NCBI GenBank assembly: GCA_001771585.1
Contig: MEUE01000001.1
Location: 191,789-255,788 of the forward strand
Origin: a candidate division WOR-1 bacterium RIFOXYB2_FULL_46_45
GTDB taxonomy: Bacteria > Margulisbacteria > WOR-1 > XYC2-FULL-46-14
Length of the DNA: 64,000 bases
Reading direction: 5' to 3'
The position numbers were made by a program, and so were the translations under genes. Of this stretch, positions 16,412-33,238 are shown one piece after another (the stretch's first letter is position 1; every line of letters begins with the position of its first letter). The notes beneath the pieces are model-generated. The model made no database searches, was not told the DNA's origin, and was given only the letters and a program-made list of their open reading frames with translations.

Positions 16412-17320
16412 CTACCTCCGCTTGCATGTTATCTTAATGCTATTTAATATTATTTTCAAGCTTGTTAAGACAATAAATCCAAAAAAAGTAACGGTGGTCA
16501 TTGGATTCAGCCAAGATTTCAAATAATGTTTTCTGAAATAATTATAGGCCGATTTATGCATCTGATAAATCATCAAATTTGATAAAAACAAGCCCCTTTT
16601 TCCGCCGCCTTTACCGGTAAAATGTATAATTTCGGCCTCGGGGATAAAACAGATTTTCCAACCCGCGTCATGGATCCTTTTACACCAGTCGGTGTCTTCC
16701 CAATAGATAAAAAAGTTTTTATCGTCCAACATCCCTACTTGATCAATTACGGATTTTCTAACCATCAATGCCGCACCGGAAGCCCAGTCGATTTCACGGA
16801 TAGAATCATAATTCCAATTTGAAAGCAGGTTTTTGGAAGACCAAGGGTTATTTGGGAATAATTTAGTTAAAAGAGAAGCCCTGCCAAACATGGTCCCCCA
16901 GGGAGTTGGGAAAGTACGGCAATTACGTTGAATTGTTTTTCCATCGGCATCATAAAGTTTACAAGTAAGCGCGCCAACTTTGGGATTAGCCTCCATAAAG
17001 GCAACCATTTTATCCAAAGCATCGTTTTTTAAGATGGTATCGTTATTTAGTAAAATTACGTATTTACCCACAGCCATTCTTATTGCCTGATTATTGGCAT
17101 AAGCAAAGCCTTTGTTTTGTTTATTCGCAATGATTTTTACTTGGGAAAATGCCTTTTTAATCGACTCACGACTACCGTCGGTAGAATTGTTGTCGACTAG
17201 GATTATCTCAAATGATAACAACTTTGTTTTGTCGTAGATGGAGCGGAGGCAGTTGGTGGTTAATTCTTGAGAGTTGTGGTTGATAAGACAAATGGATAAA
17301 TGTTTCGCATTAGTATACAT
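16412..17320 (-). CDS. GT2 glycosyltransferase (WbbL/rhamnosyltransferase-like)
   Basis: [49 protein letters not shown]. Confidence 0.9.
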
Positions 17321-18338
17321 CTTTTTTGTTTTCTATTAATTTTAAGTCTTCTCGAACCATTATCCTTACCAATTCGTCAAATTTTACCTTGGGCTTCCAA
17401 CCTAGCTTACTATTTGCTTTACTTGAATCACCCAATAAAAAATCAACTTCAGATGGTCGAAAATATTGCGGATCAATTTCAACTAAAACCTTTCCATTTG
17501 CGCAATTAACCCCTTTTTCATCTACCCCCTTACCCTTCCAGACTAATTCTATTCCAATCTCGGCAAAAGCCCTCTCACAAAACTCTTTAACTGTATGAGT
17601 TTCCCCTGTTGCAATCACATAATCATCAGGCCGATCTGCTTGCAACATCAACCACATAGCCTCCACATAATCAGGCGCGTATCCCCAATCGCGTTTGGCA
17701 TTGAGATTTCCTAAAAGAAGCTTTTCCTGAAGGCCATTTTTTATTTTTGAAACAGCTTCTGTAATCTTGCGTGTAACAAAAGTCCGGCCTCTTCTGGGAG
17801 ATTCATGGTTAAATAGAATGCCGCTACACGCAAAAAGCTTATAAGCTTCGCGATAATTAACGGTAATCCAATGCGCGTAAAGCTTGGCCACACCATAAGG
17901 GCTGCGAGGGTGAAAGGGAGTTTTTTCGTTTTGCGGAACAGTTTCGGAAAATCCTCCAAACATTTCACTGGTGGATGCCTGATAAAATTTTGTTTTAACC
18001 CCAGATTCTTTGATCGCGTCAAGCAAACGAAGTGTTCCAATCGCATCAGTTTCCGCGGTATATTCCGGCACATCAAATGAAACCTTAACATGTGATTGGG
18101 CGCCTAAATTATAAATCTCATCCGGCCGTATTTTTTCTATCAAACGGCTAAGACAAGAAGAATCTGTTAAGTCTGCATGATAAACCTTAATTTGATGCAG
18201 AATATGATCAATCCTTTCTGTGTTAAAAACCGAAGCCCGCCGCATAGCACCGTAAACCTCGTACCCCTTGACTAATAAAAACTCAGCCAGATAAGAACCA
18301 TCCTGACCAGTGATCCCAGTAATAAATGCTTTTTTCAT
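17310..18338 (-). CDS. gmd: GDP-mannose 4,6-dehydratase
   Basis: [61 protein letters not shown]. Confidence 0.96.
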
Positions 18339-18706
18339 TTTGCCGATTGCTGCTCCTTTTTATTCTGATTTTCAGACGCCACCGCTTTAAATATTGCGAA
18401 TTCTTGTGCAATATCTTTGATTTGTATGGATAAAACAGATATTTTCATCGAAAAATATATCAACATTACCAGGATAAAGCACGAGCTAAACAAAAGCAAT
18501 ACCGAGAATGGCAAAGCTACTCCAAAAACATCTTTGATCCTACTTAAAAAGTCCTGATTGAGTGTAAGAAAGATCATCAATATTATAATAAATAACCACC
18601 ATAAAGTAATAGCTTCGCTGATCTTTTTGCGCCTTAGAAGATCAAATATAAATCCTAAAAGCAATAGCGCAAGTACCACAATTGCCAATTGAACTCGGAT
18701 TGACAT
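18335..18706 (-). CDS. DUF2304-family small membrane protein (GacJ-like)
   Basis: Three TM segments, RRKKI near the N-terminus, YFSMKISVL...IKDIAQEFA tail; adjacent to a DPM1-like GT2. Confidence 0.8.
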
Positions 18707-18710
18707 TTTT

Positions 18711-19436
18711 CTATTTTCTCCTTTCTAAAAAAGATTTCAACAAAACAGCTAAAATAGCAATAGTAAGCTTAAACGGATAATAAACAGATCTTAATCCGGA
18801 ATACATTGAGCGACCACCTATTCGCTCTCGCATATTTACTGGCACCTCGATTATCTTAAAGCCGGCAAAAATCAATGACAAAAGCATATCCGCATCGGGA
18901 AAATCGGCCGGCATTTCATGTGCCAAAAATTTAATCGCTCTCTTATTAAAAGCTCTAAATCCTGAAGTGGTATCGGTTATTTTAGAGCGAACAATCAGCG
19001 ACAAAAGAACAGAAAATATTTTTATTCCTATTTGCCGCGCCCAATGGATTTTCTGCTTACCACTTTGTCCATTTGTTAAAAACCTTGATCCAACCGCCAC
19101 ATCAGCAAGGTTTTCTTTCAGTGCAACAACCATTTTCGGTATTTCTTTCGGATCATGCTGGCCATCCCCGTCAACAACAACCATTAAATCATAATTGTTT
19201 ATTTGTGCGTATTTCAAGCCAGTCTGGATAGCTGCGCCAGCACCTAAGTTAACCGGATGCGATACGATATTAATCTCCAGATTTCTTATTAACTCTTCGG
19301 TCTTGTCAGTTGAACAATCGTTAATAACTACAAGGTCATTGGACAAACCAACATTTTTTACTTCCTCAATTACCCTGATAATGCTTTCTTCCTCGTTAAA
19401 AGCGGGGACAATAATTAACAGTTTATCCATTGGCAA
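18711..19436 (-). CDS. DPM1-like GT2 polyprenol-phosphate glycosyltransferase (GacI-like)
   Basis: IVPAFNEEESI, INDCSTD, NLGAGAAIQTG, VDGDGQHDP, GSRF, DTTSGFRA, EVPVNMRER. Confidence 0.9.
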   Translation of the reverse strand: MPMDKLLIIVPAFNEEESIIRVIEEVKNVGLSNDLVVINDCSTDKTEELIRNLEINIVSHPVNLGAGAAIQTGLKYAQINNYDLMVVVDGDGQHDPKEIPKMVVALKENLADVAVGSRFLTNGQSGKQKIHWARQIGIKIFSVLLSLIVRSKITDTTSGFRAFNKRAIKFLAHEMPADFPDADMLLSLIFAGFKIIEVPVNMRERIGGRSMYSGLRSVYYPFKLTIAILAVLLKSFLERRK

Positions 19437-24249: not shown

Positions 24250-25644
24250 TCATTTGCTGTCCTTGTTCAGGATATTACGAAACAATTTTAATCCATTCCT
24301 AACCAAGCCAAGATCTTCCAAGGACCGGATACGCATTAAACGCTTCAACAAATAACTGGGCCGGAAATAAAAGCGACGATATGCTTCGCGGTACTTGGCA
24401 TTGATCTGGTTATTGGTGAGATTTTTGTGCCGGAAGATCGGTTTAGAGTTTAGGAAGGGGTCGTAATTATCCCAGGATCCGGCGATGATCCGCCCCTCTT
24501 TTTTCAATTGTTCGTACATTTTTGTCCCAGGGTAAGGGATCGCTTTGGCAAACTGCACATAGTCTGTGTCGAGTTCAATGGCCAATTTTATCGTCTGTTC
24601 GACAGCCGCTTCGGTCTCTTCGAGGTTGCCGATCATATAATTAGCGACCGACTCCAGTCCGGCTTCTTTAAATAATTTAACGGCTTTGCGGACTTGTTCA
24701 AGAGTGATTCCCTTATTAATCGAATTAAGGATCTGTTGGTTTCCCGATTCCACACCAAGGGCAACACGATAACAGCCGGCGGCCTTTAGTTTTTTTAGCA
24801 GTTCGAGCGAAACATTGGGAACCCTGATGCCGGCCGGCAAGGACCAGGGTATCTTTATCTTCTTCGCCATGATCAGGTCACAGATCGCTATCGCTCTTTT
24901 GGGCTCCGCAGTAAAATTGTCGTCGATGATCGCAAACTCCTCGATCCGGAACCTATCGATCAGGTAGTTGATCTCCGCGACGACATTTTGCGGACTGCGG
25001 GCCCGGAAACGGCTGCCAAAAATCCCTTTATAGCAAAAAGCGCAGCAGGCCGGGCAACCCCGGGAAGAAACAATCGGCAAAATAAAAACGTTTTTCCGGA
25101 AATCGTTCTTGAAACGCTCAAGATGAAATAGTTCCCAGACGGGGAATGGGAGGGAATCGAGGTTTGCAATCAGCTCTTGGTCAGAGCGATGGACAGTCCG
25201 CCCCTCATTTTTATAGGATATCCCATTGATCGCGGCCAGGCTGCCGCCGCCCTCAAAAGCCGTATAGAGCACTGCAAATGTTTTTTCCCCTTCGCCCCGG
25301 ACGACAACATCGGCTCCGTGATCGAGGAACTCATCGGGAAACAAGGTTGGGTGTGGCCCGCCAACAATGATCTTAATGCCGTTGTTTTTGCTAATTATAT
25401 CTTTAATGATCTTAAGCGAATTATTAACAGCCGGCGTTGAGATCGAAAAACCCAAGATATCCGGCCGCGCAGAAAGCACTTTTGCGGCTGTGGCCTTTGC
25501 GTCCAGGCCTTCCGCTGCGGACGAGATGATCTCAACTTCCGCACCAAGTTGCAACAAAACCGCAGCCAAATAAGCCAATCCGACAGACGGTGAATTACTG
25601 GTCGTTATGGTCGGAATCGGCGGGGCAACCAGCACTACTTTCAT
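24250..25644 (-). CDS. B12-binding radical SAM protein
   Basis: SVGLAYLAAVL, IVGGPHPT, SRGCPACCAFC, LGVESGNQQIL; start at MKVVL via ATGA overlap. Confidence 0.93.
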   Translation of the reverse strand: MKVVLVAPPIPTITTSNSPSVGLAYLAAVLLQLGAEVEIISSAAEGLDAKATAAKVLSARPDILGFSISTPAVNNSLKIIKDIISKNNGIKIIVGGPHPTLFPDEFLDHGADVVVRGEGEKTFAVLYTAFEGGGSLAAINGISYKNEGRTVHRSDQELIANLDSLPFPVWELFHLERFKNDFRKNVFILPIVSSRGCPACCAFCYKGIFGSRFRARSPQNVVAEINYLIDRFRIEEFAIIDDNFTAEPKRAIAICDLIMAKKIKIPWSLPAGIRVPNVSLELLKKLKAAGCYRVALGVESGNQQILNSINKGITLEQVRKAVKLFKEAGLESVANYMIGNLEETEAAVEQTIKLAIELDTDYVQFAKAIPYPGTKMYEQLKKEGRIIAGSWDNYDPFLNSKPIFRHKNLTNNQINAKYREAYRRFYFRPSYLLKRLMRIRSLEDLGLVRNGLKLFRNILNKDSK

Positions 25645-26699
25645 TGGCTGTACCTGACCACGCCGCAATCATGACAAACTGTTTTTAGTCCCGAAGCTCT
25701 CTTGTCACCGGTAAAAAGTTGCCGGGCCGCTTGGTAGTGAGGATTGTTCCAAACCCTTTTAAAATCTTGGTCAAACAGCGCGAAATCGGTGGTTTTATCC
25801 GCGATCGTACAGCACGGGGAGATCGCCCCATCCCAGTTGACCACCACCCCCCGCCAGAGCCACCAACAGCCGCCGATCAATTCGTTGGGTTTATCAAACA
25901 CTTTCTGGTTGCCCAAATGCTTGTCAACCGGCAACCACTTTTCTTTGGTTGCGTTGTCGATCGGGTCACGCAGGAAGACGCTGGCAAAAACGATAGAGTC
26001 GGTACCCAGTTCTTTGGACAGCTCCTTGGCCGCCTCGACTTGATGGGAGTTCTGCCTGGTAACGATAAAATGCCACTTGATGTACGGCGTCTTGCTTCCT
26101 AACTCTTTTTTAAGCCGGGCGAATAATTTTATATTGACAATTACCTGATCAAAATTGCCCCCTACCCGATAGCGATTGTAGACTTCGGCCGTAACTCCGT
26201 CGAGCCCGACGACCAGGACATCCAGTCCCGATCTAATAATATCTTTGGCTCGCCGCTCTTCCAGCTGGAAAGAGAGATTACTGCTGACAGTCGTGCTTAA
26301 ATTGGCATTATGCGAGTATTGGATAAAACGGTTAAGGTCCCGGTGCAGGAACGATTCGCCCCAGAGGTGCAGGTAGACGTGAAAAGCGTAAGGGCCAAGG
26401 GTGTCGATCATCTTTTGAAAGGCCGCCAGCCCCATAAAGCCTTTTTCCCGGCCGGCGCTACCGGTCCCAGTAAAACAGAGTGGGCACTTAAGCTGGCAGA
26501 TGTTCGTCGGCTCTATAACAATCTCATACGGATAGCCGTTGACGATCGTTTTTTTCTTAAAAAAAGCGTACTCAATTTTAGCCAGATTGACCAATCTCTT
26601 TAACGTCAGCCGTTTCAGCCTGATATACGCGGCATAATAATAGTGCTTAAATAAGGAAAGATATTTTATCAGCAGTACGCGAAAGACAATCGTGCTCAT
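25641..26699 (-). CDS. Radical SAM protein with SPASM/Twitch C-terminal domain
   Basis: IEPTNICQLKCPLC, LWGESFL, GCWWLWRGVVVNWDGAISPCC, VCHDC. Confidence 0.9.
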   Translation of the reverse strand: MSTIVFRVLLIKYLSLFKHYYYAAYIRLKRLTLKRLVNLAKIEYAFFKKKTIVNGYPYEIVIEPTNICQLKCPLCFTGTGSAGREKGFMGLAAFQKMIDTLGPYAFHVYLHLWGESFLHRDLNRFIQYSHNANLSTTVSSNLSFQLEERRAKDIIRSGLDVLVVGLDGVTAEVYNRYRVGGNFDQVIVNIKLFARLKKELGSKTPYIKWHFIVTRQNSHQVEAAKELSKELGTDSIVFASVFLRDPIDNATKEKWLPVDKHLGNQKVFDKPNELIGGCWWLWRGVVVNWDGAISPCCTIADKTTDFALFDQDFKRVWNNPHYQAARQLFTGDKRASGLKTVCHDCGVVRYSQ

Positions 26700-28036
26700 T
26701 CTAACCGTTCCCTAAACTTATTAAAAATCAAATAATACCCATAAGCCGCAAAAATACAAAGAAAAGGTTGAATAGGATAACGATAAACCAAGCCATCATC
26801 AACAACGGTAAAACCATGAAAAATAATATAATATACAATAAAAGCAATCAACAAACCTGAGGCTTGCCATTGTTTCTTTAAAGCTAAAAACATTCCACAA
26901 AAAGATGCCGGAAAAATAAATAGCCAAGTTAATGTTTTATATATTTTTGCTTGTGGTTGCATTTGCGATGTAAAAGGAGATAAATACTTAATAAACCGGA
27001 TTGAACTCTTAATGATAAATTCTTTAGGGTTACGAGCAACAAAACCGACAAATGTCGTTAGATAAGGCAAAGAGGATGAATTAGACATTATGATTGGATA
27101 AATATGAGAATTAGGGTAGTCAACAAATATTGCACCTGCCTCATCGGTTAAAACGGTAAAATCATTAAATACAACAGCATTACGTATAGCCCAAGCCGAT
27201 AAAATTATTGCAAAAGAAAACAACAATACCAACAACCATAGAACGATGCTTCTTTTTTCTTGTTCCCAACAAAATAATTTCCAAACAATAATAAGTGGCA
27301 CAAAAAAAAGCAAGGTCAACCGAGTTAAACATGCCATTCCTAAAAATACTCCAATTAGCAGGGCAAAGGTTTTCTTTTGATTAGAATCTTTTTTTAATAA
27401 AAACCAAAAACTCAAAGTTAATAAAAAAATAAAAAGGGTTTCTACTCGCATTTTATTGGTCCAAAGTATTAATTCTGGGTATAAAGCAACCATAAAAGCA
27501 GATGCAACTGCAACCTTATCATTAAATATCCCCTTTGCGATAGAATATATCAAACAACAAGTTAGACTGCTTAACAATATTTGCGGCAAAAACCAAGCTA
27601 ATGTGTTTAGCCCAAAAGCATAAATGCATAATGCTAAAAATATTGGGTATAAGGGGGGGACTAATTTATGCTTAAAAAAATCGCCCTTATAAAGCTCTTT
27701 TTTGTGTGCCCTTCCGGTAAAAACATGTTTTGAGTTAATTTGCCCAAGCTCCGGAGAACTATTGTCATATTTTTCGAATTCTTGAATATTAACTGCGTAT
27801 CCATGCCCCTCAATTAATGATTTTGCGGTAAGAACATATGTTAACTCATCGCTATCAGCATTTTTAAAGAAATCATCTCCATAACGAATAAAAACCCTTG
27901 ATTCGTTGCTATCCGTTATATATGGCTGATCAAAACATGTTGTTCTAATAATAGGTAAAACAACCCGAATTAACATTGAAAACACAAAAATTATCAATAA
28001 AATTTTTATTTGGTTACTATTTGTTTTACTTATCAT
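26696..28036 (-). CDS. GT-C (ArnT/PMT-like) membrane glycosyltransferase
   Basis: Multi-TM; DSDELTY acidic loop, PPLYPIFLA, ALYPELI, ETLFIFL, LTR, YRYPIQPFL. Confidence 0.75.
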   Translation of the reverse strand: MISKTNSNQIKILLIIFVFSMLIRVVLPIIRTTCFDQPYITDSNESRVFIRYGDDFFKNADSDELTYVLTAKSLIEGHGYAVNIQEFEKYDNSSPELGQINSKHVFTGRAHKKELYKGDFFKHKLVPPLYPIFLALCIYAFGLNTLAWFLPQILLSSLTCCLIYSIAKGIFNDKVAVASAFMVALYPELILWTNKMRVETLFIFLLTLSFWFLLKKDSNQKKTFALLIGVFLGMACLTRLTLLFFVPLIIVWKLFCWEQEKRSIVLWLLVLLFSFAIILSAWAIRNAVVFNDFTVLTDEAGAIFVDYPNSHIYPIIMSNSSSLPYLTTFVGFVARNPKEFIIKSSIRFIKYLSPFTSQMQPQAKIYKTLTWLFIFPASFCGMFLALKKQWQASGLLIAFIVYYIIFHGFTVVDDGLVYRYPIQPFLCIFAAYGYYLIFNKFRERLE

Positions 28037-28043
28037 TTCAAAC

Positions 28044-29093
28044 TTAATGTCGCTTTAATAAAAATTTTTTATGGGCGTCTAAAGTTGCTAAGACGCGGCT
28101 CTTGATAATCTTGCGCTTCATTGTTACAGCCATAGAAACAAGAGGTTTAAATCTCCCCAAAACATAACAGATATTCAAGATTCTTTGACCATATCCGAAT
28201 TTAAGCGCTTTATCCTTAAATGTGGCCCATTGTTTATCATTATCAATAAAAGAAGTGGCATTAATAATCGTGTACCAGGGATGTTCACGCATCATAACCC
28301 CAAAAAAAGAATCTTTCATCTTAAGATCGTCAGATAAATATTTATTTGCCAAATGCCAATAACCATCAAAGTCAAGCAGGAATTTTCCTACTAGTCCGTT
28401 GGCATTTTGAAAACTTACATTATCACTACGCCATAACGCCAGAGAATCTCTAATATATTTCAGTCTGCATTTTCGTTTAATAAAAGAGAGCAACACCGAA
28501 GCGCTTGCATACGCCGATCCATCAAATTCTTCAAGGAATCCAGTCTTGTTCCATTCTTCGCGGCGAAATACAATTGAGCTCCAAAAACTAAAAAGCGCAC
28601 CGATAGAATTCGCCTTATTACAATATTCTACAAAGTCACTTTTATTGTGAAGATTAAAAATTCTATCGCGAATTTTCCTCGAAAGCCAAAAACGTTGCCT
28701 AATAGGACGCATCTGCAAATCACAAGCAGTTATATTGCAAAGATATATCTCGCAACCGGTTTTAATCTCTTTGAGCATCCTCTCGATCGCTCCCGTCTTA
28801 AGCATGTCGTCATCTGAAAACAACCAACAATACTCGCCTCGTGCCAGTTCAACCGCCGTTGCCATATCCCTATCCACGCCGCCGTTTTTCTCAAGCCGAC
28901 GATAAACTATATTGTTGAATTTTTTTTGATATTGCCCTACCACCTCCGTCGTATTATCAGTTGACGCTCCATCCACAACAACTATTTCAACATTATCACC
29001 CGCCTGAGAAATTATGCTATCGAGAGCTTCACCAATAAAATCAGCACGATTGCGAGTAGTGATACAAAATGACAATTGTATTTTATTCTGCAT
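28044..29093 (-). CDS. GT2, RfbV/abequosyltransferase-like
   Basis: CITTRNRADFIGEALDSI, VDGASTDNT, NGGVDRD, GEYCWLFSDDD, SIGALFSFWSSIVF. Confidence 0.8.
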   Translation of the reverse strand: MQNKIQLSFCITTRNRADFIGEALDSIISQAGDNVEIVVVDGASTDNTTEVVGQYQKKFNNIVYRRLEKNGGVDRDMATAVELARGEYCWLFSDDDMLKTGAIERMLKEIKTGCEIYLCNITACDLQMRPIRQRFWLSRKIRDRIFNLHNKSDFVEYCNKANSIGALFSFWSSIVFRREEWNKTGFLEEFDGSAYASASVLLSFIKRKCRLKYIRDSLALWRSDNVSFQNANGLVGKFLLDFDGYWHLANKYLSDDLKMKDSFFGVMMREHPWYTIINATSFIDNDKQWATFKDKALKFGYGQRILNICYVLGRFKPLVSMAVTMKRKIIKSRVLATLDAHKKFLLKRH

Positions 29094-30063
29094 TTTTTTC
29101 TAGGTCGGCCTCAACCATAAGCTTAACCAATTTATCGATTTTGAATTTTGGATCAAATCCAAATGTCTTTCTAGCCTTAGTTATATCGCCAACTAGCGAT
29201 GATGTTTTTGTCGGCCGCAAAAGTTTTTGATCCGTTACAACATAATTATCCGGTTTAAGATTTACAACCGCAAAGGCCTTCTCAACCCATTCCCCAACAG
29301 AATGTGCCTCACCAGTAGCAATTACAAAATCATCGGGCTTATCCAACTGCAATATCCGCCAGGCCGTTTCCATATATTCCCGCGCGTATCCCCAATCAAT
29401 ACAAGCCGACATGTCCCCCAAAATAAGTTTGTCTTGTTTCCCACAGGCTATTTTTGCAACAGCTCGGGTAACCTTGCGGGTTAAATACTCCGGGGTACGC
29501 CGGGGAGACTCGTGGTTATATAAAATAGCAGTTGAAGCAAATATTCCAAAGGCCTGACGGTAATAACGAGTCAGGTAAAAAGCCATGGCTTTTGCACAAG
29601 CATAAGGGCTTTGAGGATTAAACGGAGTATTCTCATTTTGTTTGATACTATCTGTTAAGCCAAACATATTTGACGTGCAGGGCTGAAAATACCGGATTGT
29701 ACGATCAATCTGACGGATAATCTCTAAAATTCGACCAACCGCCGCTCCGGTAATATCCGCCGAATAACCGACCATGTCATAACTCCAGCTCACATGATCC
29801 TGATCTGCCTCATTGTATATTTCCTGCGGCCTGACAGCATTAATAATCCGATAAAGAGAGGTAGGATCAGCCAAATCTCCCCGTTGAAGAAAAAAATTCT
29901 TGCCAAAAATTTTGGGGTCTTCAATAAGATGATCGATATTACGAGTGTTTCCAGTTGCTGATCGGCGTATCATCCCGTGTACTTCATACCCCTTTTCAAG
30001 CAATATCTCTGCCAAATAACTGCCATCCTGCCCCGTAACACCTAAAACCAATGCTCTCTTCAT
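29083..30063 (-). CDS. GMD-like SDR paralogue with a divergent active site
   Basis: [38 protein letters not shown] are retained, but QPCTSNMFG replaces QASTSEMFG. Confidence 0.85.
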   Translation of the reverse strand: MKRALVLGVTGQDGSYLAEILLEKGYEVHGMIRRSATGNTRNIDHLIEDPKIFGKNFFLQRGDLADPTSLYRIINAVRPQEIYNEADQDHVSWSYDMVGYSADITGAAVGRILEIIRQIDRTIRYFQPCTSNMFGLTDSIKQNENTPFNPQSPYACAKAMAFYLTRYYRQAFGIFASTAILYNHESPRRTPEYLTRKVTRAVAKIACGKQDKLILGDMSACIDWGYAREYMETAWRILQLDKPDDFVIATGEAHSVGEWVEKAFAVVNLKPDNYVVTDQKLLRPTKTSSLVGDITKARKTFGFDPKFKIDKLVKLMVEADLEKNAE

Positions 30064-30494
30064 TATCTGCCCCCAAAAGACTTGATATTAAATCCGGAAG
30101 GGAGCTCTTTTGCAAATTGGAACGCCCCACTCTGATTATCCAATTTAATCGGCTGTTTGTCATTAATAACTGCTTCAAAAACAACGCTGACGGAATGATA
30201 GCCAAAAGGCAAACCAAAAGGATTTACCCCTTCTACCAACTCAAAACAACCGATGGGCCGCACGTTGTTGATCTGTAGCCCTGTTTCTTGCTTAACCTTG
30301 CGGACTGCCGCTTCTTCCAACGTTTCTCCTTTGAGTACCCTGCCGCCAATAACCCACCATTCATCTTTTTTCGGCTCATTATTGCGTTTAACCAACAAGT
30401 ATTCTCCCTGGAGATTTTTAATAACTATGTCCGCGCAAAGAATCGGCAAATTTCTTAAAATATCGATATACTTATCGGTCGGAATTAAACTCAC
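30063..30494 (-). CDS. GDP-mannose mannosyl hydrolase-like NUDIX protein
   Basis: LPILCADIVI, LLVKRNNEPKKDEWWVIGGRVLKGETLEEAAVRKVKQETG; GTG start overlapping the upstream stop (GTGA). Confidence 0.85.
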   Translation of the reverse strand: MSLIPTDKYIDILRNLPILCADIVIKNLQGEYLLVKRNNEPKKDEWWVIGGRVLKGETLEEAAVRKVKQETGLQINNVRPIGCFELVEGVNPFGLPFGYHSVSVVFEAVINDKQPIKLDNQSGAFQFAKELPSGFNIKSFGGR

Positions 30495-31699
30495 GACACC
30501 ACCCGAAATTCCGGAAGAGGAACAATAAATTTTCCTCCACGAGAACGCCACTCCGCTTCACGCTTATAGAATTCATCAAAAAAAGCCCAAGGCAACACCA
30601 GGAAGTAATCCGGATTGGCTTTTCGTGCCTCTTCTTCGGAGACGATCGGGATCCACGACCCAATGGTATATTTCCCCCATTTCTCCGGGCTGCGCTCGGC
30701 AGCTGCTGCAATCAACTTATTGTCTAATCCATAATATTGAAGAATTACGTTTCCTTTTGTAGAAGCGCCGTAAACATATATTTTTTTGCCTTTTGCGGCT
30801 TCCTCTTTAATAAAGTCAACGCATTTCTTGCGGTTATCCTCAAGACGCTTGGCAAAAGCCAGCAAATCATCACGCGTAAATTTTTCTTTATATTTTATAC
30901 CGGTTCCTTTATAATGACGGCAAAAAATCCTGTAACTCCCCCCATTAACGTTGTTTTCTTCAATCTTGAACATCTCAAGGCCATTGGTTTCAAACAGATA
31001 TTTTAGTGAATCAAGCGAATAATATTCCAGATGTTCATGGCAGATATTTCCCAAGTCGTTCTTTTCGATCATCGGTGCCAGACACATCAGCTGGGCGACA
31101 AAAACGCCGTCATCCGTCAATGCGCGGGCCGCATCCTTAATGAATTTATTGGGATCTTCCAAATCGTAAAACATGCCGATAGCGGTAATAACTTTAGCTT
31201 TTCCAAAACCCCACCCCTTCGCCAATTCCATATAGCGCTCATAATTCCAAAAATCGTGCATCACATATTTGGTTTTTTGCTTTAACGCGTCTACCAGATT
31301 ATTGGCCGGTTCACATCCTACACGATGAATTCCGGTCGCGGTATATGTTTCTAACATTGTTCCGTCATTCGCGCCGATATCCAATACAACATCCCCGGAT
31401 TTAAGGGACACAATAGATTCAATTTCTTTAGTAATATCCCTCAACGCGAGACGCATTGTGTCTGTCACCCCGGATCTATACCAATAATACCGCGAATACA
31501 ATAATTCTTGCGGAGCGGTGTGACGAAGCTGTAAGAGGGAGCATTTGCCGCACATTACCAGATCAAGCGGTGCCTTTAATCCTTTCCCCACTCTTTCTAA
31601 AGGTACAAAATCATTAATATATTGGTCGCCAACCGAAAAAACATCCTGCAAATCGTTCGATCCGCACAAGCGGCAGGTTTTGCGAGTAATTGTTTCCAC
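30491..31699 (-). CDS. NDP-hexose C-methyltransferase (Zn-binding, TylC3/NovU-like)
   Basis: CRLCG...CGKCSLLQL Zn site, DIGANDG, CHEHLEYYS, YGASTKG, LVLPWAF, GGKFIVPLP. Confidence 0.88.
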   Translation of the reverse strand: METITRKTCRLCGSNDLQDVFSVGDQYINDFVPLERVGKGLKAPLDLVMCGKCSLLQLRHTAPQELLYSRYYWYRSGVTDTMRLALRDITKEIESIVSLKSGDVVLDIGANDGTMLETYTATGIHRVGCEPANNLVDALKQKTKYVMHDFWNYERYMELAKGWGFGKAKVITAIGMFYDLEDPNKFIKDAARALTDDGVFVAQLMCLAPMIEKNDLGNICHEHLEYYSLDSLKYLFETNGLEMFKIEENNVNGGSYRIFCRHYKGTGIKYKEKFTRDDLLAFAKRLEDNRKKCVDFIKEEAAKGKKIYVYGASTKGNVILQYYGLDNKLIAAAAERSPEKWGKYTIGSWIPIVSEEEARKANPDYFLVLPWAFFDEFYKREAEWRSRGGKFIVPLPEFRVVS

Positions 31700-31719: not shown

Positions 31720-32826
31720 TTATCCTATAATTTTATTCACCGCGGCCACAACTTCGTCAATTTGTCGTTCGGTTAAAGTCATACCCGAAGGCAAATACAA
31801 TCCCTGTCTTGCTATCCGTTCGGTAACAGGATAACTCTCTCCCTTAAATAAATCCAAATCATGTAAAGCCGGCTGTTCGTGCAATCCCAGAAAAAATGGG
31901 CGTGTTCCTATTCCCTCTTTACCCAGTTCTCGCATCATTGTTTCGGCATCTATTCCTAGCGCATTATCCAACTCGATACAATACATCCAATATACCATTT
32001 TTGCCCACGGTTTTTCAATTTGATATTTGATCCCTTTAATCTTACTTAGCCCCTCACGATAATATTCACCCAGTCGTCGCTTAATCCGTACAAACTCTTC
32101 AATCCGCTCCATCTGCGCAACTCCGATAGCGGCCTGCAGATTGGTCATTCGAAAATTATATCCCAACTCGGTGTGGTAAAACCTTTTTTCCGGACGAAAA
32201 CAGAGATTACGATAAGATGCCGCCCGTTCAGCCATTTTGGGATCGGAGGTAAGCACCATCCCTCCTTCACCGGTTGTAATTATTTTGTTGGCATAAAACG
32301 ACCAGGCACTGACATGGCCGATACTTCCGCATTTCTGCCCCTTATACTCTGCCCCGTGAACTTCAGCCGCATCTTCAACAATAACAAGGTTATGTTTCTT
32401 GGCAATCGCCAAGACGGGATCCATGTTTACTGGATGTCCATAGATGTGAACCGGCATAATGGCTTTGGTCTTTGAAGTCAAACGAGATTCAATCTGATTC
32501 ACATCCATATTCCAAGTTTCAGGCTCACAATCAACCAAAACCGGCACTGCACCAAGCCGAATAGCCGCCAAAGCACAGGAGATAATTGTAAAAGACGGCA
32601 TTATCACTTCATCGCCCTTTCCTACCCCAGCAGCAAACAAGGCTGTTTCTAAAGCCGCCGTCCCATTACATACCGCAATGCCATATTTAACTCCAATATA
32701 ATCAGCAAATTTCCGCTCAAATTCGATGACAAACGGCCCATCTGAAGAGATCCAGCCGGTTTCAATGCATTGCGCTAATAATTCCTTTTCGTGGCCATTT
32801 AATAATGGTTGATTAACAGGAATCAT
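31720..32826 (-). CDS. DegT/DnrJ/EryC1/StrS aminotransferase, perosamine-synthase-like
   Basis: GWISSDGPFV, NGTAAL, EDAAEVHG, SFYANKIITTGEGG, GYNFRMTNLQAA; start at MIPVNQP. Confidence 0.9.
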   Translation of the reverse strand: MIPVNQPLLNGHEKELLAQCIETGWISSDGPFVIEFERKFADYIGVKYGIAVCNGTAALETALFAAGVGKGDEVIMPSFTIISCALAAIRLGAVPVLVDCEPETWNMDVNQIESRLTSKTKAIMPVHIYGHPVNMDPVLAIAKKHNLVIVEDAAEVHGAEYKGQKCGSIGHVSAWSFYANKIITTGEGGMVLTSDPKMAERAASYRNLCFRPEKRFYHTELGYNFRMTNLQAAIGVAQMERIEEFVRIKRRLGEYYREGLSKIKGIKYQIEKPWAKMVYWMYCIELDNALGIDAETMMRELGKEGIGTRPFFLGLHEQPALHDLDLFKGESYPVTERIARQGLYLPSGMTLTERQIDEVVAAVNKIIG

Positions 32827-33238
32827 CGGTGCTCCTTTTGCCCTCAAATCTGCCTTTATCTGCTCCTTCAATATACGGACCATTTTTTACTTCGATGATT
32901 TCGGCTTCTTGAAGAACCTCAATTCCATGACCTGCACCGGCAAGCAGAATAGTATCACCCGCAGACAACTTACGGCTCTCTAAAAATTCTTGCTCAAAAG
33001 AGTAAAAATCAATGCGAATTTCTCCGCTTTTTATAAATAAAACTTCTTGTGTGCCTATAGTATTTCTATGGACAGGGTTATGAATATGAGGTGAAATTCG
33101 ATAACCATTAGGACGTGTCATATAACCAAGTTGCAAGGGATATTTATTGGGTGACAAGAACTGAATTCCTTCCTGTTTATGGTCCTTATAAACAATAATA
33201 GCGATAACTGTATCGTTATGAATTATGTTTTCAAGCAT
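32813..33238 (-). CDS. Cupin-fold protein
   Basis: PHIHN...QEVLFIKSG...GAGHG...EVKNGPY metal-binding cupin pattern. Confidence 0.7.
   Translation of the reverse strand: MLENIIHNDTVIAIIVYKDHKQEGIQFLSPNKYPLQLGYMTRPNGYRISPHIHNPVHRNTIGTQEVLFIKSGEIRIDFYSFEQEFLESRKLSAGDTILLAGAGHGIEVLQEAEIIEVKNGPYIEGADKGRFEGKRSTDDSC

What the first reader, a model, noticed from the sequence alone, without database searches (positions are those of the whole stretch)
29083..30063. Second GMD paralogue has Asn in place of the catalytic Glu
The canonical copy has QASTSEMFG; this one has QPCTSNMFG (codon AAT) and NEADQDHV for NLGAQSHV, while YxxxK is intact. The Thr-x-Glu glutamate is the established acid/base for the dehydration step of GMD. 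The enzyme may therefore be a reductase or epimerase acting after the neighbouring C-methyltransferase (inference).
Basis: partly seen in the sequence, partly recalled or inferred. Interest (0 to 1): 0.55.

Follow-up and report, generated by a model that had tools for sequence, protein, structure and literature searches.

The report
Dehydration-dead GMD paralogue partnering a C-methyltransferase
The second "GDP-mannose dehydratase" gene really lacks the residue that does the dehydration. It belongs to a widespread, untested sister group of that enzyme that is almost always encoded with a sugar C-methyltransferase, so it most likely does a C4 redox step in making a methyl-branched surface sugar.

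Summary
Observation confirmed. The gene (29083-30063, minus strand, 326 aa) reads FQPCTSNMFG (Asn132, codon AAT at 29668-29670), YNEADQDHV and YACAK. The canonical copy (17310-18338) reads QASTSEMFG and NLGAQSHV.

The change is not an error. All 120 nearest protein clusters and all 47 genomic loci at 55% identity or more lack the Glu. They form one clade with six co-varying changes: L85E, A87D, S89D, A128P, E132 to N/T/H/M/L, and R222 to I/V/L.

The partner is a TylC3/MtmC-type sugar C-methyltransferase:
- It is present in 46 of 47 genomes that carry the Glu-less copy.
- It is fused to the Glu-less copy in four archaeal loci.
- Within this phylum the two occur in exactly the same 3 of 146 genomes.

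Other co-occurring genes across the 47 genomes:
- a canonical Glu-bearing GMD in at least 40, plus 2 truncated copies;
- a perosamine-synthase-like aminotransferase in 44;
- a small cupin in 36.

So the paralogue works after, not instead of, the true dehydratase. The best reading is an NADPH-dependent 4-ketoreductase acting on the methyltransferase product. A redox-neutral "oxidise, methylate, re-reduce" role on an amino sugar is a serious rival, because the aminotransferase would otherwise make a reductase unnecessary.

The subfamily is uncharacterised and is annotated as an ordinary GMD. This scan has already noted the same subfamily on other DNA.

The parts
29083..30063 (-). Glu-less GMD-family paralogue (326 aa, P0001)
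   Evidence: Full-length PF16363 match, E 4e-103. TIGR01472 381.6 bits, below the 415 cut-off. 44-46% identical to solved GMDs, E 1e-95. AF2 model pLDDT 96.2, TM 0.95 to GMD structures.
29668..29676 (-). Thr130-Ser131-Asn132 (ACG TCA AAT) in place of the GMD signature [ST]-S-Glu
   Evidence: The GMD signature [ST]SE..Yx3K, with Glu as the only extra catalytic residue, is taken from the review PMC8987622.
29791..29814 (-). NEADQDHV loop (residues 84-91) replacing NLAAQSHV. Glu85, Asp87 and Asp89 are clade-invariant.
29590..29604 (-). Tyr154-x3-Lys158 (YACAK), the SDR catalytic dyad, retained
   Evidence: Y154 and K158 are conserved in both clades.
30022..30042 (-). GxxGxxG dinucleotide-binding motif (GVTGQDG), retained
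   Evidence: G8, G11, Q12, D13 and G14 are conserved in both clades.
29398..29400 (-). Ile222 in place of the Arg of the RDWG motif (ACIDWG)
   Evidence: canonical sequences have R in 98%; the Glu-less clade has V/I/L/F. Searches show RDWG in canonical copies.
30063..30551 (-). Gmm-like NUDIX protein. Its stop codon overlaps the paralogue's start codon.
   Evidence: PF00293 E 2e-17. Best NCBIfam hit is GDP-mannose mannosyl hydrolase at 57 bits, below its cut-off. Present in 22 of 47 loci, so it is optional.
30491..31699 (-). Zn-finger sugar 3-C-methyltransferase (TylC3/MtmC/TcaB9 type), the obligate partner
   Evidence: Pfam Methyltransf_13/23/14. Best PDB hit is MtmC 4RV9, E 1e-45, then KijD1 and TcaB9. 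An orthologue is present in 46 of 47 genomes. Fusions are seen in P0122, L028, L034, L035 and L044.
31720..32883 (-). GDP-perosamine-synthase-like PLP aminotransferase with the catalytic Lys kept
   Evidence: PDB 3BN1 E 2e-99; motif SFYANKIITTGEGG. Present in 44 of 47 genomes.
32813..33238 (-). Small cupin (141 aa) with invariant His51, His53, Glu65 and His104
   Evidence: Weak WbuC-family hit. Alignment A1. AF2 pLDDT 92.5. Nearest solved folds are sugar 3,4-ketoisomerases and RmlC-type epimerases, Z 7-9. One copy in 36 of 47 genomes.
28044..29093 (-). GT2 glycosyltransferase whose start overlaps the paralogue's end by 11 nt
   Evidence: Orthologues at 59-71% identity sit directly downstream in L001-L004 and L009.
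17310..18338 (-). Canonical Glu-bearing GDP-mannose 4,6-dehydratase, the presumed supplier of the 4-keto-6-deoxy intermediate
   Evidence: TIGR01472 549.1 bits, above the cut-off. Motifs.

Best explanation
The gene encodes a GMD-derived extended SDR. It has kept the NADP(H) site, the GDP-sugar site and the Thr/Tyr/Lys redox triad, but has lost the single residue (Glu) that lets GMD eliminate water. It therefore cannot make GDP-4-keto-6-deoxymannose itself; the canonical GMD 11 kb away does that.

The proposed sequence is:
1. The canonical GMD makes GDP-4-keto-6-deoxymannose.
2. The adjacent 3-C-methyltransferase methylates C3 of this 4-keto sugar.
3. The Glu-less paralogue uses NADPH to reduce the C4 carbonyl of the methylated product, giving a GDP-6-deoxy-3-C-methylhexose (evalose/virenose-like).
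4. The downstream GT2 and polyprenyl-phosphate machinery put the sugar on a surface glycan.

Shown here: loss of the Glu, retention of the redox and nucleotide motifs, clade-wide conservation, the obligate genomic partnership with the methyltransferase, and coexistence with a true GMD.

Inferred: the substrate, the direction of the redox step and the cofactor turnover.
For: - Sequence and fold. The GMD fold is intact, with pLDDT 96 and TM 0.95 to GMDs. G8, G11, G14, R33, Y154, K158, N183, H184, S186 and R189 are conserved in both clades.
- Role of the Glu. It is the sole extra catalytic residue of GMD (review PMC8987622). The human E157Q variant was crystallised with unreacted GDP-Man (6GPK title).
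- Clade. The Glu-less sequences are monophyletic and share six changes.
- Partnership with the C-methyltransferase. An orthologue is present in 46 of 47 genomes. It is adjacent or fused in 38 of 47 loci, and P0122 is a methyltransferase-paralogue fusion. In this phylum both occur in exactly G000, G136 and G190 out of 146 genomes.
- Canonical GMD. It is present in at least 40 of 47 genomes, plus 2 copies truncated at contig ends, and lies within 8 kb in 16 loci.
- Only conserved SDR. The paralogue is the only SDR conserved in the cassette. Some loci contain only GT2, methyltransferase and paralogue (L071, L024, L043). This is the slot a 4-ketoreductase fills in known C-methyl sugar pathways.
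- Precedent. Some GMDs are reported to reduce their own product to GDP-rhamnose (cited in PMC3539893), so the scaffold can do the reduction.
Against: - A perosamine-synthase-like aminotransferase co-occurs in 44 of 47 genomes. It could aminate the same C4 carbonyl, so GMD, methyltransferase and aminotransferase already form a complete route without a reductase.
- CPR and DPANN operons of the form cupin, aminotransferase, GtrB-like GT2, GtrA, methyltransferase, paralogue carry only one polyprenyl-phosphate transferase. That argues for one sugar product that is both aminated and methylated.
- The clade-specific changes add three acidic residues and remove an arginine. That is not what an extra methyl group on a neutral sugar would predict.
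- No biochemical data exist for any member; none was found in the held literature.
Confidence: 0.4

Rival explanations
1. Redox-neutral helper of the methyltransferase ("borrowed hydride").
1. GMD, the cupin (acting as a 3,4-ketoisomerase) and the aminotransferase first make a GDP-3-amino-3,6-dideoxyhexose.
2. The Glu-less paralogue, holding NADP+ as GMD does, oxidises C4-OH to the ketone.
3. The methyltransferase methylates C3, as TcaB9 and KijD1 do on 3-amino-4-keto sugars.
4. The paralogue returns the hydride to C4.
A mirror version would act on GDP-perosamine through a 3-keto intermediate.
For: - It uses every conserved gene once and gives one product. GMD, methyltransferase, aminotransferase and paralogue co-occur in about 90% or more of 47 genomes, and the cupin in 36 of 47.
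- There is a single GtrB-like transferase per CPR or DPANN operon.
- Methyltransferase-paralogue fusions fit hand-to-hand transfer of an intermediate.
- The cupin's nearest solved folds include the sugar 3,4-ketoisomerases FdtD, QdtA and WlaRB, with an HxH pair at residues 51 and 53.
- The pocket gains Glu85, Asp87 and Asp89 and loses Arg222, which fits an ammonium-bearing substrate.
- Gene modules are shuffled between genomes. G002 has GMD, cupin and methyltransferase on one contig and NUDIX, paralogue and aminotransferase on another. This suggests one pathway rather than two.
Against: - No precedent is known to me for a two-enzyme oxidise-methylate-reduce cycle on a nucleotide sugar.
- The methyltransferase is closer to MtmC (a 3-hydroxy substrate, 159 bits) than to TcaB9 or KijD1 (3-amino substrates, 119-122 bits).
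- The aminotransferase's best match is a C4 aminotransferase.
- Eleven genomes have no cupin.
- The acidic loop aligns, from memory, with the cofactor-contacting Lys84 region of GalE. It may therefore touch NADP rather than the sugar.
Confidence: 0.25
2. C4 dehydrogenase without dehydration. The paralogue oxidises GDP-mannose (or another GDP-hexose) to the 4-keto sugar while keeping the 6-OH. That sugar feeds the methyltransferase and/or the aminotransferase. The reduced cofactor would be recycled as in Cj1427 (by alpha-ketoglutarate, a co-product of the aminotransferase), or by re-reducing C4 after methylation to give GDP-3-C-methylmannose.
For: - Loss of the Glu with an otherwise GMD-like substrate site.
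- Precedent: Cj1427, a GDP-heptose C4 dehydrogenase SDR recycled by alpha-ketoglutarate (PMC10680097).
- 3-C-methyl-D-mannose exists in nature (PMC12961483 abstract).
- G012 and G015 have the paralogue but no canonical GMD was found.
Against: - A canonical GMD is present in at least 40 of 47 genomes, including 0.6-1.2 Mb CPR and DPANN genomes, and often lies within 8 kb. This reading leaves that unexplained.
- G012 and G015 are MAGs of unknown completeness.
Confidence: 0.12
3. Still a 4,6-dehydratase, with the general acid/base moved to another residue, for example the invariant Asp89 of the QDHV motif.
For: Asp89, Asp87 and Glu85 are invariant new carboxylates in a loop next to the active-site strand. 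Other NDP-sugar dehydratases use different acid/base pairs (PMC8987622).
Against: - It would duplicate the canonical GMD, which is retained in nearly all genomes, even the smallest ones.
- It scores below the curated GMD cut-off.
Confidence: 0.05
4. Non-redox role. It could be an epimerase acting on the 4-keto sugar, or a non-catalytic subunit that binds the unstable 4-keto GDP-sugar and hands it to the methyltransferase.
For: The fusion and adjacency with the methyltransferase. SDR scaffolds can epimerise 4-keto sugars; GMER is an example (cited in PMC3539893).
Against: - Tyr154, Lys158, Thr/Ser130 and the full dinucleotide motif are under clade-wide conservation, which points to hydride chemistry.
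- No Cys/His acid-base pair is conserved. Cys129 varies to V, L or A.
Confidence: 0.08

Closest known systems
[quoted passage not shown]
   Same: Same fold and length, 44-50% identity. Same GxxGxxG, RR loop, Thr/Ser-Tyr-Lys triad and [10 protein letters not shown]-sugar motif.
   Different: Lacks the defining Glu of [ST]SE and the Arg of RDWG, and carries the NEADQDHV loop. Scores below the curated cut-off. Forms a separate clade. Is always accompanied by a true GMD and a C-methyltransferase.
Human GMD E157Q variant (PDB 6GPK)
   Same: A GMD with the Glu neutralised to an amide. It binds GDP-mannose without turning it over, according to the entry title. This is the laboratory analogue of the natural Asn.
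   Different: It is an engineered single change. The natural clade has five further fixed changes and a variable residue at this position.
[quoted passage not shown]
   Same: The proposed chemistry is the same: NADPH reduction of C4 of a GDP-4-keto-6-deoxyhexose on an extended SDR fold. TM to 2PK3 is 0.88.
   Different: Only 21% identity and E 1e-20 to 2PK3, so this is not an RMD family member. The presumed substrate carries a 3-C-methyl group.
4-ketoreductases that follow TylC3/EvaC/MtmC-type C-methyltransferases in dTDP pathways (TylC2, EvaE, MtmTIII), and the proposed GDP routes to virenose and evalose
   Same: The pathway logic is the same: 4,6-dehydratase, then 3-C-methyltransferase, then C4 reduction (PMC3539893).
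   Different: Those reductases are RmlD/GMER-type or aldo-keto reductases acting mostly on dTDP sugars. Here the slot is filled by a disabled dehydratase paralogue on a GDP sugar.
[quoted passage not shown]
   Same: A GDP-sugar SDR that oxidises C4 without dehydrating (PMC10680097).
   Different: It did not appear among PDB sequence hits at E 1e-3 or better. It uses NAD and alpha-ketoglutarate. It has no methyltransferase partner.

Membership tests
GDP-mannose 4,6-dehydratase (TIGR01472 / EC 4.2.1.47) | Extended SDR fold with a full-length GDP_Man_Dehyd domain | tested here: met
   PF16363 covers residues 5-316 of 326, E 4e-103. The AF2 model has TM 0.95 to 6GPK and 1N7G.
GDP-mannose 4,6-dehydratase (TIGR01472 / EC 4.2.1.47) | Catalytic [ST]..Yx3K triad and the GxxGxxG NADP site | tested here: met
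   T130, Y154, K158 and G8/G11/G14 are present.
GDP-mannose 4,6-dehydratase (TIGR01472 / EC 4.2.1.47) | Glu of the [ST]-S-E motif, the only additional acid/base for dehydration (PMC8987622) | tested here: not met
   Asn132, codon AAT. The clade has N/T/H/M/L at this position and never E or D.
GDP-mannose 4,6-dehydratase (TIGR01472 / EC 4.2.1.47) | Score above the curated equivalog cut-off (415 bits) | tested here: not met
   381.6 bits, against 549.1 bits for the canonical copy in the same window.
GDP-mannose 4,6-dehydratase (TIGR01472 / EC 4.2.1.47) | Arg of the RDWG motif, conserved in 98% of canonical sequences | tested here: not met
   Ile222; the clade has V/I/L/F here.
GDP-mannose 4,6-dehydratase (TIGR01472 / EC 4.2.1.47) | Conversion of GDP-mannose to GDP-4-keto-6-deoxymannose | not testable with these tools
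   This needs an enzyme assay.
Glu-less GMD-like clade (unnamed, uncharacterised) | Six shared substitutions: E85, D87, D89, P128, non-acidic 132, hydrophobic 222 | tested here: met
   P0001 reads E, D, D, P, N, I at these positions. It sits inside the monophyletic clade.
Glu-less GMD-like clade (unnamed, uncharacterised) | Encoded with a TylC3-type C-methyltransferase orthologue | tested here: met
   The methyltransferase at 30491-31699 is separated only by the NUDIX gene. 46 of 47 genomes have it.
GDP-4-keto-6-deoxymannose reductase (RMD) | Sequence membership in the RMD family (2PK3, 6X3B) | tested here: not met
   E 1.3e-20 and 9e-4, against 1e-95 for GMDs. 21% identity.
GDP-4-keto-6-deoxymannose reductase (RMD) | NADPH-dependent reduction of a GDP-4-keto-6-deoxyhexose | not testable with these tools
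   This is the proposed activity; it needs an assay.
Cj1427-type GDP-sugar C4 dehydrogenase | Sequence relationship to Cj1427 | tested here: inconclusive
   No chain with that name appears among the 38 PDB hits at E 1e-3 or better. A direct alignment was not possible.

The most novel reading that the evidence does not exclude
The Glu-less paralogue and the C-methyltransferase form a two-enzyme "borrowed-hydride" machine. The paralogue transiently oxidises C4 of a finished GDP-amino-deoxysugar (or of GDP-mannose itself) and keeps the hydride on its bound NADPH. Its partner methylates the activated neighbouring carbon, and the paralogue then puts the hydride back. This would be a previously undescribed way to C-methylate nucleotide sugars, and a route to 2-hydroxy 3-amino-3-C-methyl sugars on a GDP carrier in CPR bacteria, DPANN archaea and many other phyla.
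Probability: 0.25. Interest if true: 0.8.

Novelty: new variant of a known kind. Interest (0 to 1): 0.58.

Why it matters
- Annotation. Every source name seen for these proteins is "GDP-mannose 4,6-dehydratase", although they lack the residue that defines that activity. Pathway reconstructions that count them as Gmd are wrong.
- Biology. The clade marks a conserved, horizontally mobile cassette for a methyl-branched, probably aminated, GDP-sugar. It occurs in at least a dozen bacterial and archaeal lineages, including genome-reduced CPR and DPANN organisms, whose surface glycans are essentially unknown.
- Enzyme evolution. It is a clean natural example of a dehydratase converted to a plain C4 redox enzyme by loss of one catalytic residue plus a fixed set of second-shell changes. 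If the redox-neutral rival is right, it is also new enzymology.
- Practical use. The pair could be a tool for making branched GDP-sugars.

Tried and rejected
Contexts therefore came from the search for related loci and the genome search.
- The one metagenome scan, seeded with P0146 to get contexts for the sister Glu-less subclade (FQPxSATMFG and FQPCTAMMFG types), returned six loci. Four are canonical GMDs, one showed no GMD motif, and one is a 42-residue fragment at a contig end. The context of that subclade remains unknown.
- The listing of cluster members gave no organism names for that subclade.
- Phylum-level hits at 49-51% identity looked like possible further Glu-less copies. They were fetched and are all canonical (SSE, RDWG).
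- Three structural papers could not be read because they are not held: RMD/GMD PMC4381037, Cj1427 PMC7509852 and P. aeruginosa GMD PMC2286695. Residue-contact statements for Ser89 and Arg222 therefore rest on my memory of GalE (K84, R231) and are marked as such.
- I tried to see the RMD active-site motif by querying PDB with another SDR of this genome. That protein turned out to be RmlB.
- Sequencing error or pseudogene: rejected on clade-wide conservation.
- NUDIX as an essential EvaA-like 2,3-dehydratase: rejected. It is absent from 25 of 47 loci, including L002, whose paralogue is 83% identical.
- Aminotransferase as a ColD-type 3-dehydratase: rejected because the PLP lysine is present.
- Model coordinates are not returned, so distances from Asp89 or Ile222 to the substrate could not be measured.
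Full report
**1. The observation**

The ORF is on the minus strand at 29083-30063 and encodes 326 aa (P0001). It reads FQPCTSNMFG, with the Asn132 codon AAT at 29668-29670, YNEADQDHV and PYACAK.

The canonical paralogue lies at 17310-18338, also on the minus strand, and reads [10 protein letters not shown] and YNLGAQSHV. Against NCBIfam TIGR01472 (gmd, cut-off 415 bits) the canonical copy scores 549.1 bits and the paralogue 381.6 bits. Pfam GDP_Man_Dehyd covers the whole paralogue at E 4e-103. Its best solved relatives are true GMDs at E 1e-95 to 1e-77.

The window's genome is 1.70 Mb in 4 contigs and 99.5% complete. It holds only these two GMD-family genes among 14 SDR matches.

**2. It is a conserved clade, not an accident**

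- All 120 nearest 90%-identity clusters (78-86% identical) carry YNEADQDHV, and none has Glu. 113 read PCTSNMFG.
- A scan of one genome per prokaryotic species returned 80 loci. All 47 loci at 55% identity or more have [TS]S[N/H/T], and all 33 loci at 51% or less have [ST]SE.
- The 47 carriers span Planctomycetota, Omnitrophota, Ratteibacteria, Deltaproteobacteria, Spirochaetota, Gemmatimonadota, Acidobacteriota, Chloroflexota, CPR lineages (Peribacteria, Saccharibacteria, Liptonbacteria), DPANN archaea and Methanosarcinales.
- In a FastTree of 117 family members drawn from 50%-identity representatives, the Glu-less sequences form one clade under midpoint rooting.
- A group-specific conservation analysis (29 Glu-less against 85 canonical sequences) finds six fixed differences: L85E, A87D, S89D, A128P, E132 to N/T/H/M/L, and R222 to V/I/L/F. 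It also finds T7L, Y126F, F193Y and M234A. By contrast G8, G11, Q12, D13, G14, R33, Y154, K158, N183, H184, S186 and R189 are conserved in both groups.

- The former Glu position is variable. Asn is therefore not a new catalytic residue; the requirement seems to be "not acidic".
- The invariant novelties are three carboxylates in the loop after strand 4 and the loss of the RDWG arginine.

From memory, Ser89 aligns with Lys84 of GalE (a cofactor contact) and Arg222 with Arg231 of GalE and RmlB (an NDP-phosphate contact). The RDW arginine is visibly present in this genome's RmlB and its PDB relatives. I could not measure distances because model coordinates are not returned.

The AF2 model is confident (pLDDT 96.2) and superposes on GMD structures at TM 0.95. 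These include human E157Q bound to unreacted GDP-mannose, 6GPK.

**3. Why the Glu matters**

The review PMC8987622 gives the GMD signature as [ST]SE..Yx3K. It states that GMD uses this single Glu as its only additional catalytic residue for dehydration. The paralogue fails that defining feature.

**4. Context in the window**

All genes are on the minus strand and tightly packed. In order:
- cupin, 32813-33238;
- perosamine-synthase-like aminotransferase, 31720-32883 (PDB 3BN1 E 2e-99, PLP lysine present);
- Zn-finger sugar 3-C-methyltransferase, 30491-31699 (best PDB hit MtmC 4RV9, then KijD1 and TcaB9);
- Gmm-like NUDIX, 30063-30551;
- the paralogue;
- GT2, 28044-29093;
- a PMT_2/ArnT-like GT-C, 26696-28036.

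The paralogue's start codon overlaps the NUDIX stop codon. Its end overlaps the GT2 start by 11 nt.

**5. Context elsewhere**

I called ORFs within 8 kb of the 47 Glu-less genes and clustered them. The conserved neighbours are:

| Neighbour | Loci (of 47) |
|---|---|
| C-methyltransferase | 38 (34 separate, 4 fused methyltransferase-paralogue proteins in archaeal loci L028, L034, L035, L044) |
| aminotransferase | 30 |
| cupin | 24 |
| NUDIX | 22 |
| ~250-aa GtrB-type GT2 | 19, often with a GtrA-like protein |
| second, Glu-bearing GMD | 16 |

A 732-aa representative, P0122, has the same fusion by Pfam.

Whole-genome searches over the 47 genomes give:

| Gene | Genomes (of 47) |
|---|---|
| methyltransferase orthologue (54% identity or more) | 46 |
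| aminotransferase (42% identity or more) | 44 |
| canonical GMD | at least 40, plus 2 truncated at contig ends with RDWG intact |
| cupin | 36, always a single copy |

In the window's own phylum (146 genomes), the Glu-less copy and the orthologous methyltransferase occur in exactly the same three genomes: G000, G136 and G190. By contrast 74 genomes have some GMD. Hits at 49-51% identity there were fetched and are all canonical.

The canonical GMD is kept even in 0.6-1.2 Mb CPR and DPANN genomes. The paralogue therefore does not replace the dehydratase; it works with it. The methyltransferase is its tightest partner.

**6. What it most likely does**

The retained dinucleotide motif, RR loop, Thr/Tyr/Lys triad and GDP-sugar motif argue for hydride chemistry at C4 of a GDP-sugar. 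The lost Glu argues against dehydration.

The simplest scheme is: GMD makes GDP-4-keto-6-deoxymannose, the methyltransferase methylates C3, and the paralogue reduces C4 with NADPH. This matches the dehydratase, C-methyltransferase, 4-ketoreductase logic of known pathways, and the GDP routes proposed for virenose (PMC3539893). The paralogue is the only conserved SDR in the cassette. Some loci contain just GT2, methyltransferase and paralogue (L071, L024, L043). Some GMDs are reported to reduce their own product (cited), which gives an easy evolutionary path. I give this reading 0.40.

**7. The complication**

The aminotransferase is nearly universal, and GMD, methyltransferase and aminotransferase already suffice for a 4-amino-3-C-methyl sugar. 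CPR and DPANN operons of the form cupin, aminotransferase, GtrB-like GT2, GtrA, methyltransferase, paralogue carry a single polyprenyl-phosphate transferase, which suggests one product.

Gene modules are also shuffled between genomes:
- G002 has GMD, cupin and methyltransferase on one contig, and NUDIX, paralogue and aminotransferase on another.
- G011 and G013 have GMD with the aminotransferase apart from the methyltransferase with the paralogue.

A scheme that uses every gene once is the following:
1. GMD makes the 4-keto sugar.
2. The cupin acts as a 3,4-ketoisomerase.
3. The aminotransferase aminates C3.
4. The paralogue oxidises C4.
5. The methyltransferase methylates C3.
6. The paralogue returns the hydride.

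The cupin model (pLDDT 92.5) has sugar 3,4-ketoisomerases (FdtD Z 8.8, HCAN_0198, QdtA, WlaRB) and RmlC-type epimerases as its nearest folds. It also has an invariant HxH pair. However, Z values of 7-9 are modest. The more acidic pocket would suit an ammonium substrate.

Against this scheme: the methyltransferase is nearer to MtmC than to TcaB9 or KijD1, 11 genomes lack the cupin, and there is no precedent. I give it 0.25.

The other rivals are:
- a Cj1427-like C4 dehydrogenase (PMC10680097), 0.12;
- a dehydratase with a relocated base, 0.05;
- an epimerase or non-catalytic partner, 0.08.

**8. Comparison with what is known**

By fold and descent it is a GMD-family protein. By the defining catalytic Glu, the curated score and the RDWG arginine it is not a GMD. 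It is not an RMD by sequence (E 1e-20, 21% identity).

I found no paper on a Glu-less GMD paralogue in the held library. Sources name these proteins "GDP-mannose 4,6-dehydratase".

After I had reached this reading, the scan's own index showed that the same subfamily had been noted and followed up on other genomes with concordant conclusions. I list those notes as agreeing.

**9. Verdict**

This is a real, conserved, mis-annotated subfamily: a new variant of a known enzyme kind. Its partnership with a C-methyltransferase is well supported. Its exact reaction is still undetermined.

Noticed in passing
window 32813-33238 (-): The 141-aa cupin upstream of the aminotransferase has invariant His51, His53, Glu65 and His104 across 22 orthologues. 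Its confident model is nearest to the sugar 3,4-ketoisomerases FdtD, QdtA and WlaRB and to RmlC-type epimerases (Z 7-9). It matches no Pfam family and only weakly matches the WbuC cupin family. It occurs as a single copy in 36 of 47 genomes that carry the Glu-less GMD.
   Followed up: partly
G037:C3:80419-82719 and G028:C2:7825-10119 (genomes of L030 and L016); protein P0215: The C-methyltransferase orthologue matches in two halves inside one uninterrupted 824-aa or 792-aa frame, which suggests an intein or other in-frame insertion. A 631-aa Glu-less GMD-like representative, P0215, has a Pfam Intein_splicing match in its middle.
   Followed up: no
window 18335-19436 (-) and 26696-28036 (-): A GtrB-type GT2 (241 aa) and a DUF2304 protein sit directly upstream of the canonical GMD. 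A PMT_2/ArnT-like GT-C lies two genes downstream of the Glu-less paralogue. In CPR and DPANN loci a homologous ~250-aa GT2 and a GtrA-like protein sit between the aminotransferase and the methyltransferase. This hints that the sugar travels on a polyprenyl phosphate, as in the Arn pathway.
   Followed up: partly
proteins P0265 and P0268 (50%-identity representatives): Two sequences inside the canonical part of the GMD tree have also lost the Glu, apparently independently. P0265 has Glu to Trp; P0268 has Glu to His together with Arg222 to Met. Neither has the NEADQDHV loop.
   Followed up: no
L017 / genome G002 (Gemmatimonadota MAG): C3:290571-293321 and C2:202237-204353: The cassette is split differently from the other genomes. 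Canonical GMD, cupin and C-methyltransferase are on one contig; NUDIX, the Glu-less paralogue and the aminotransferase are on another.
   Followed up: partly
L061 and L064 (Acidobacteriota): A canonical GMD is found with a related aminotransferase (47% identity) and cupin (29% identity), but without the methyltransferase or the Glu-less paralogue. The GMD, cupin and aminotransferase module therefore also exists on its own.
   Followed up: no
window 24250-26699 (-): A B12-binding radical SAM enzyme and a radical SAM/SPASM enzyme follow the GT-C gene in the same strand run. Orthologues at 49% identity lie downstream in L003. Their role relative to the sugar cassette is unknown.
   Followed up: no
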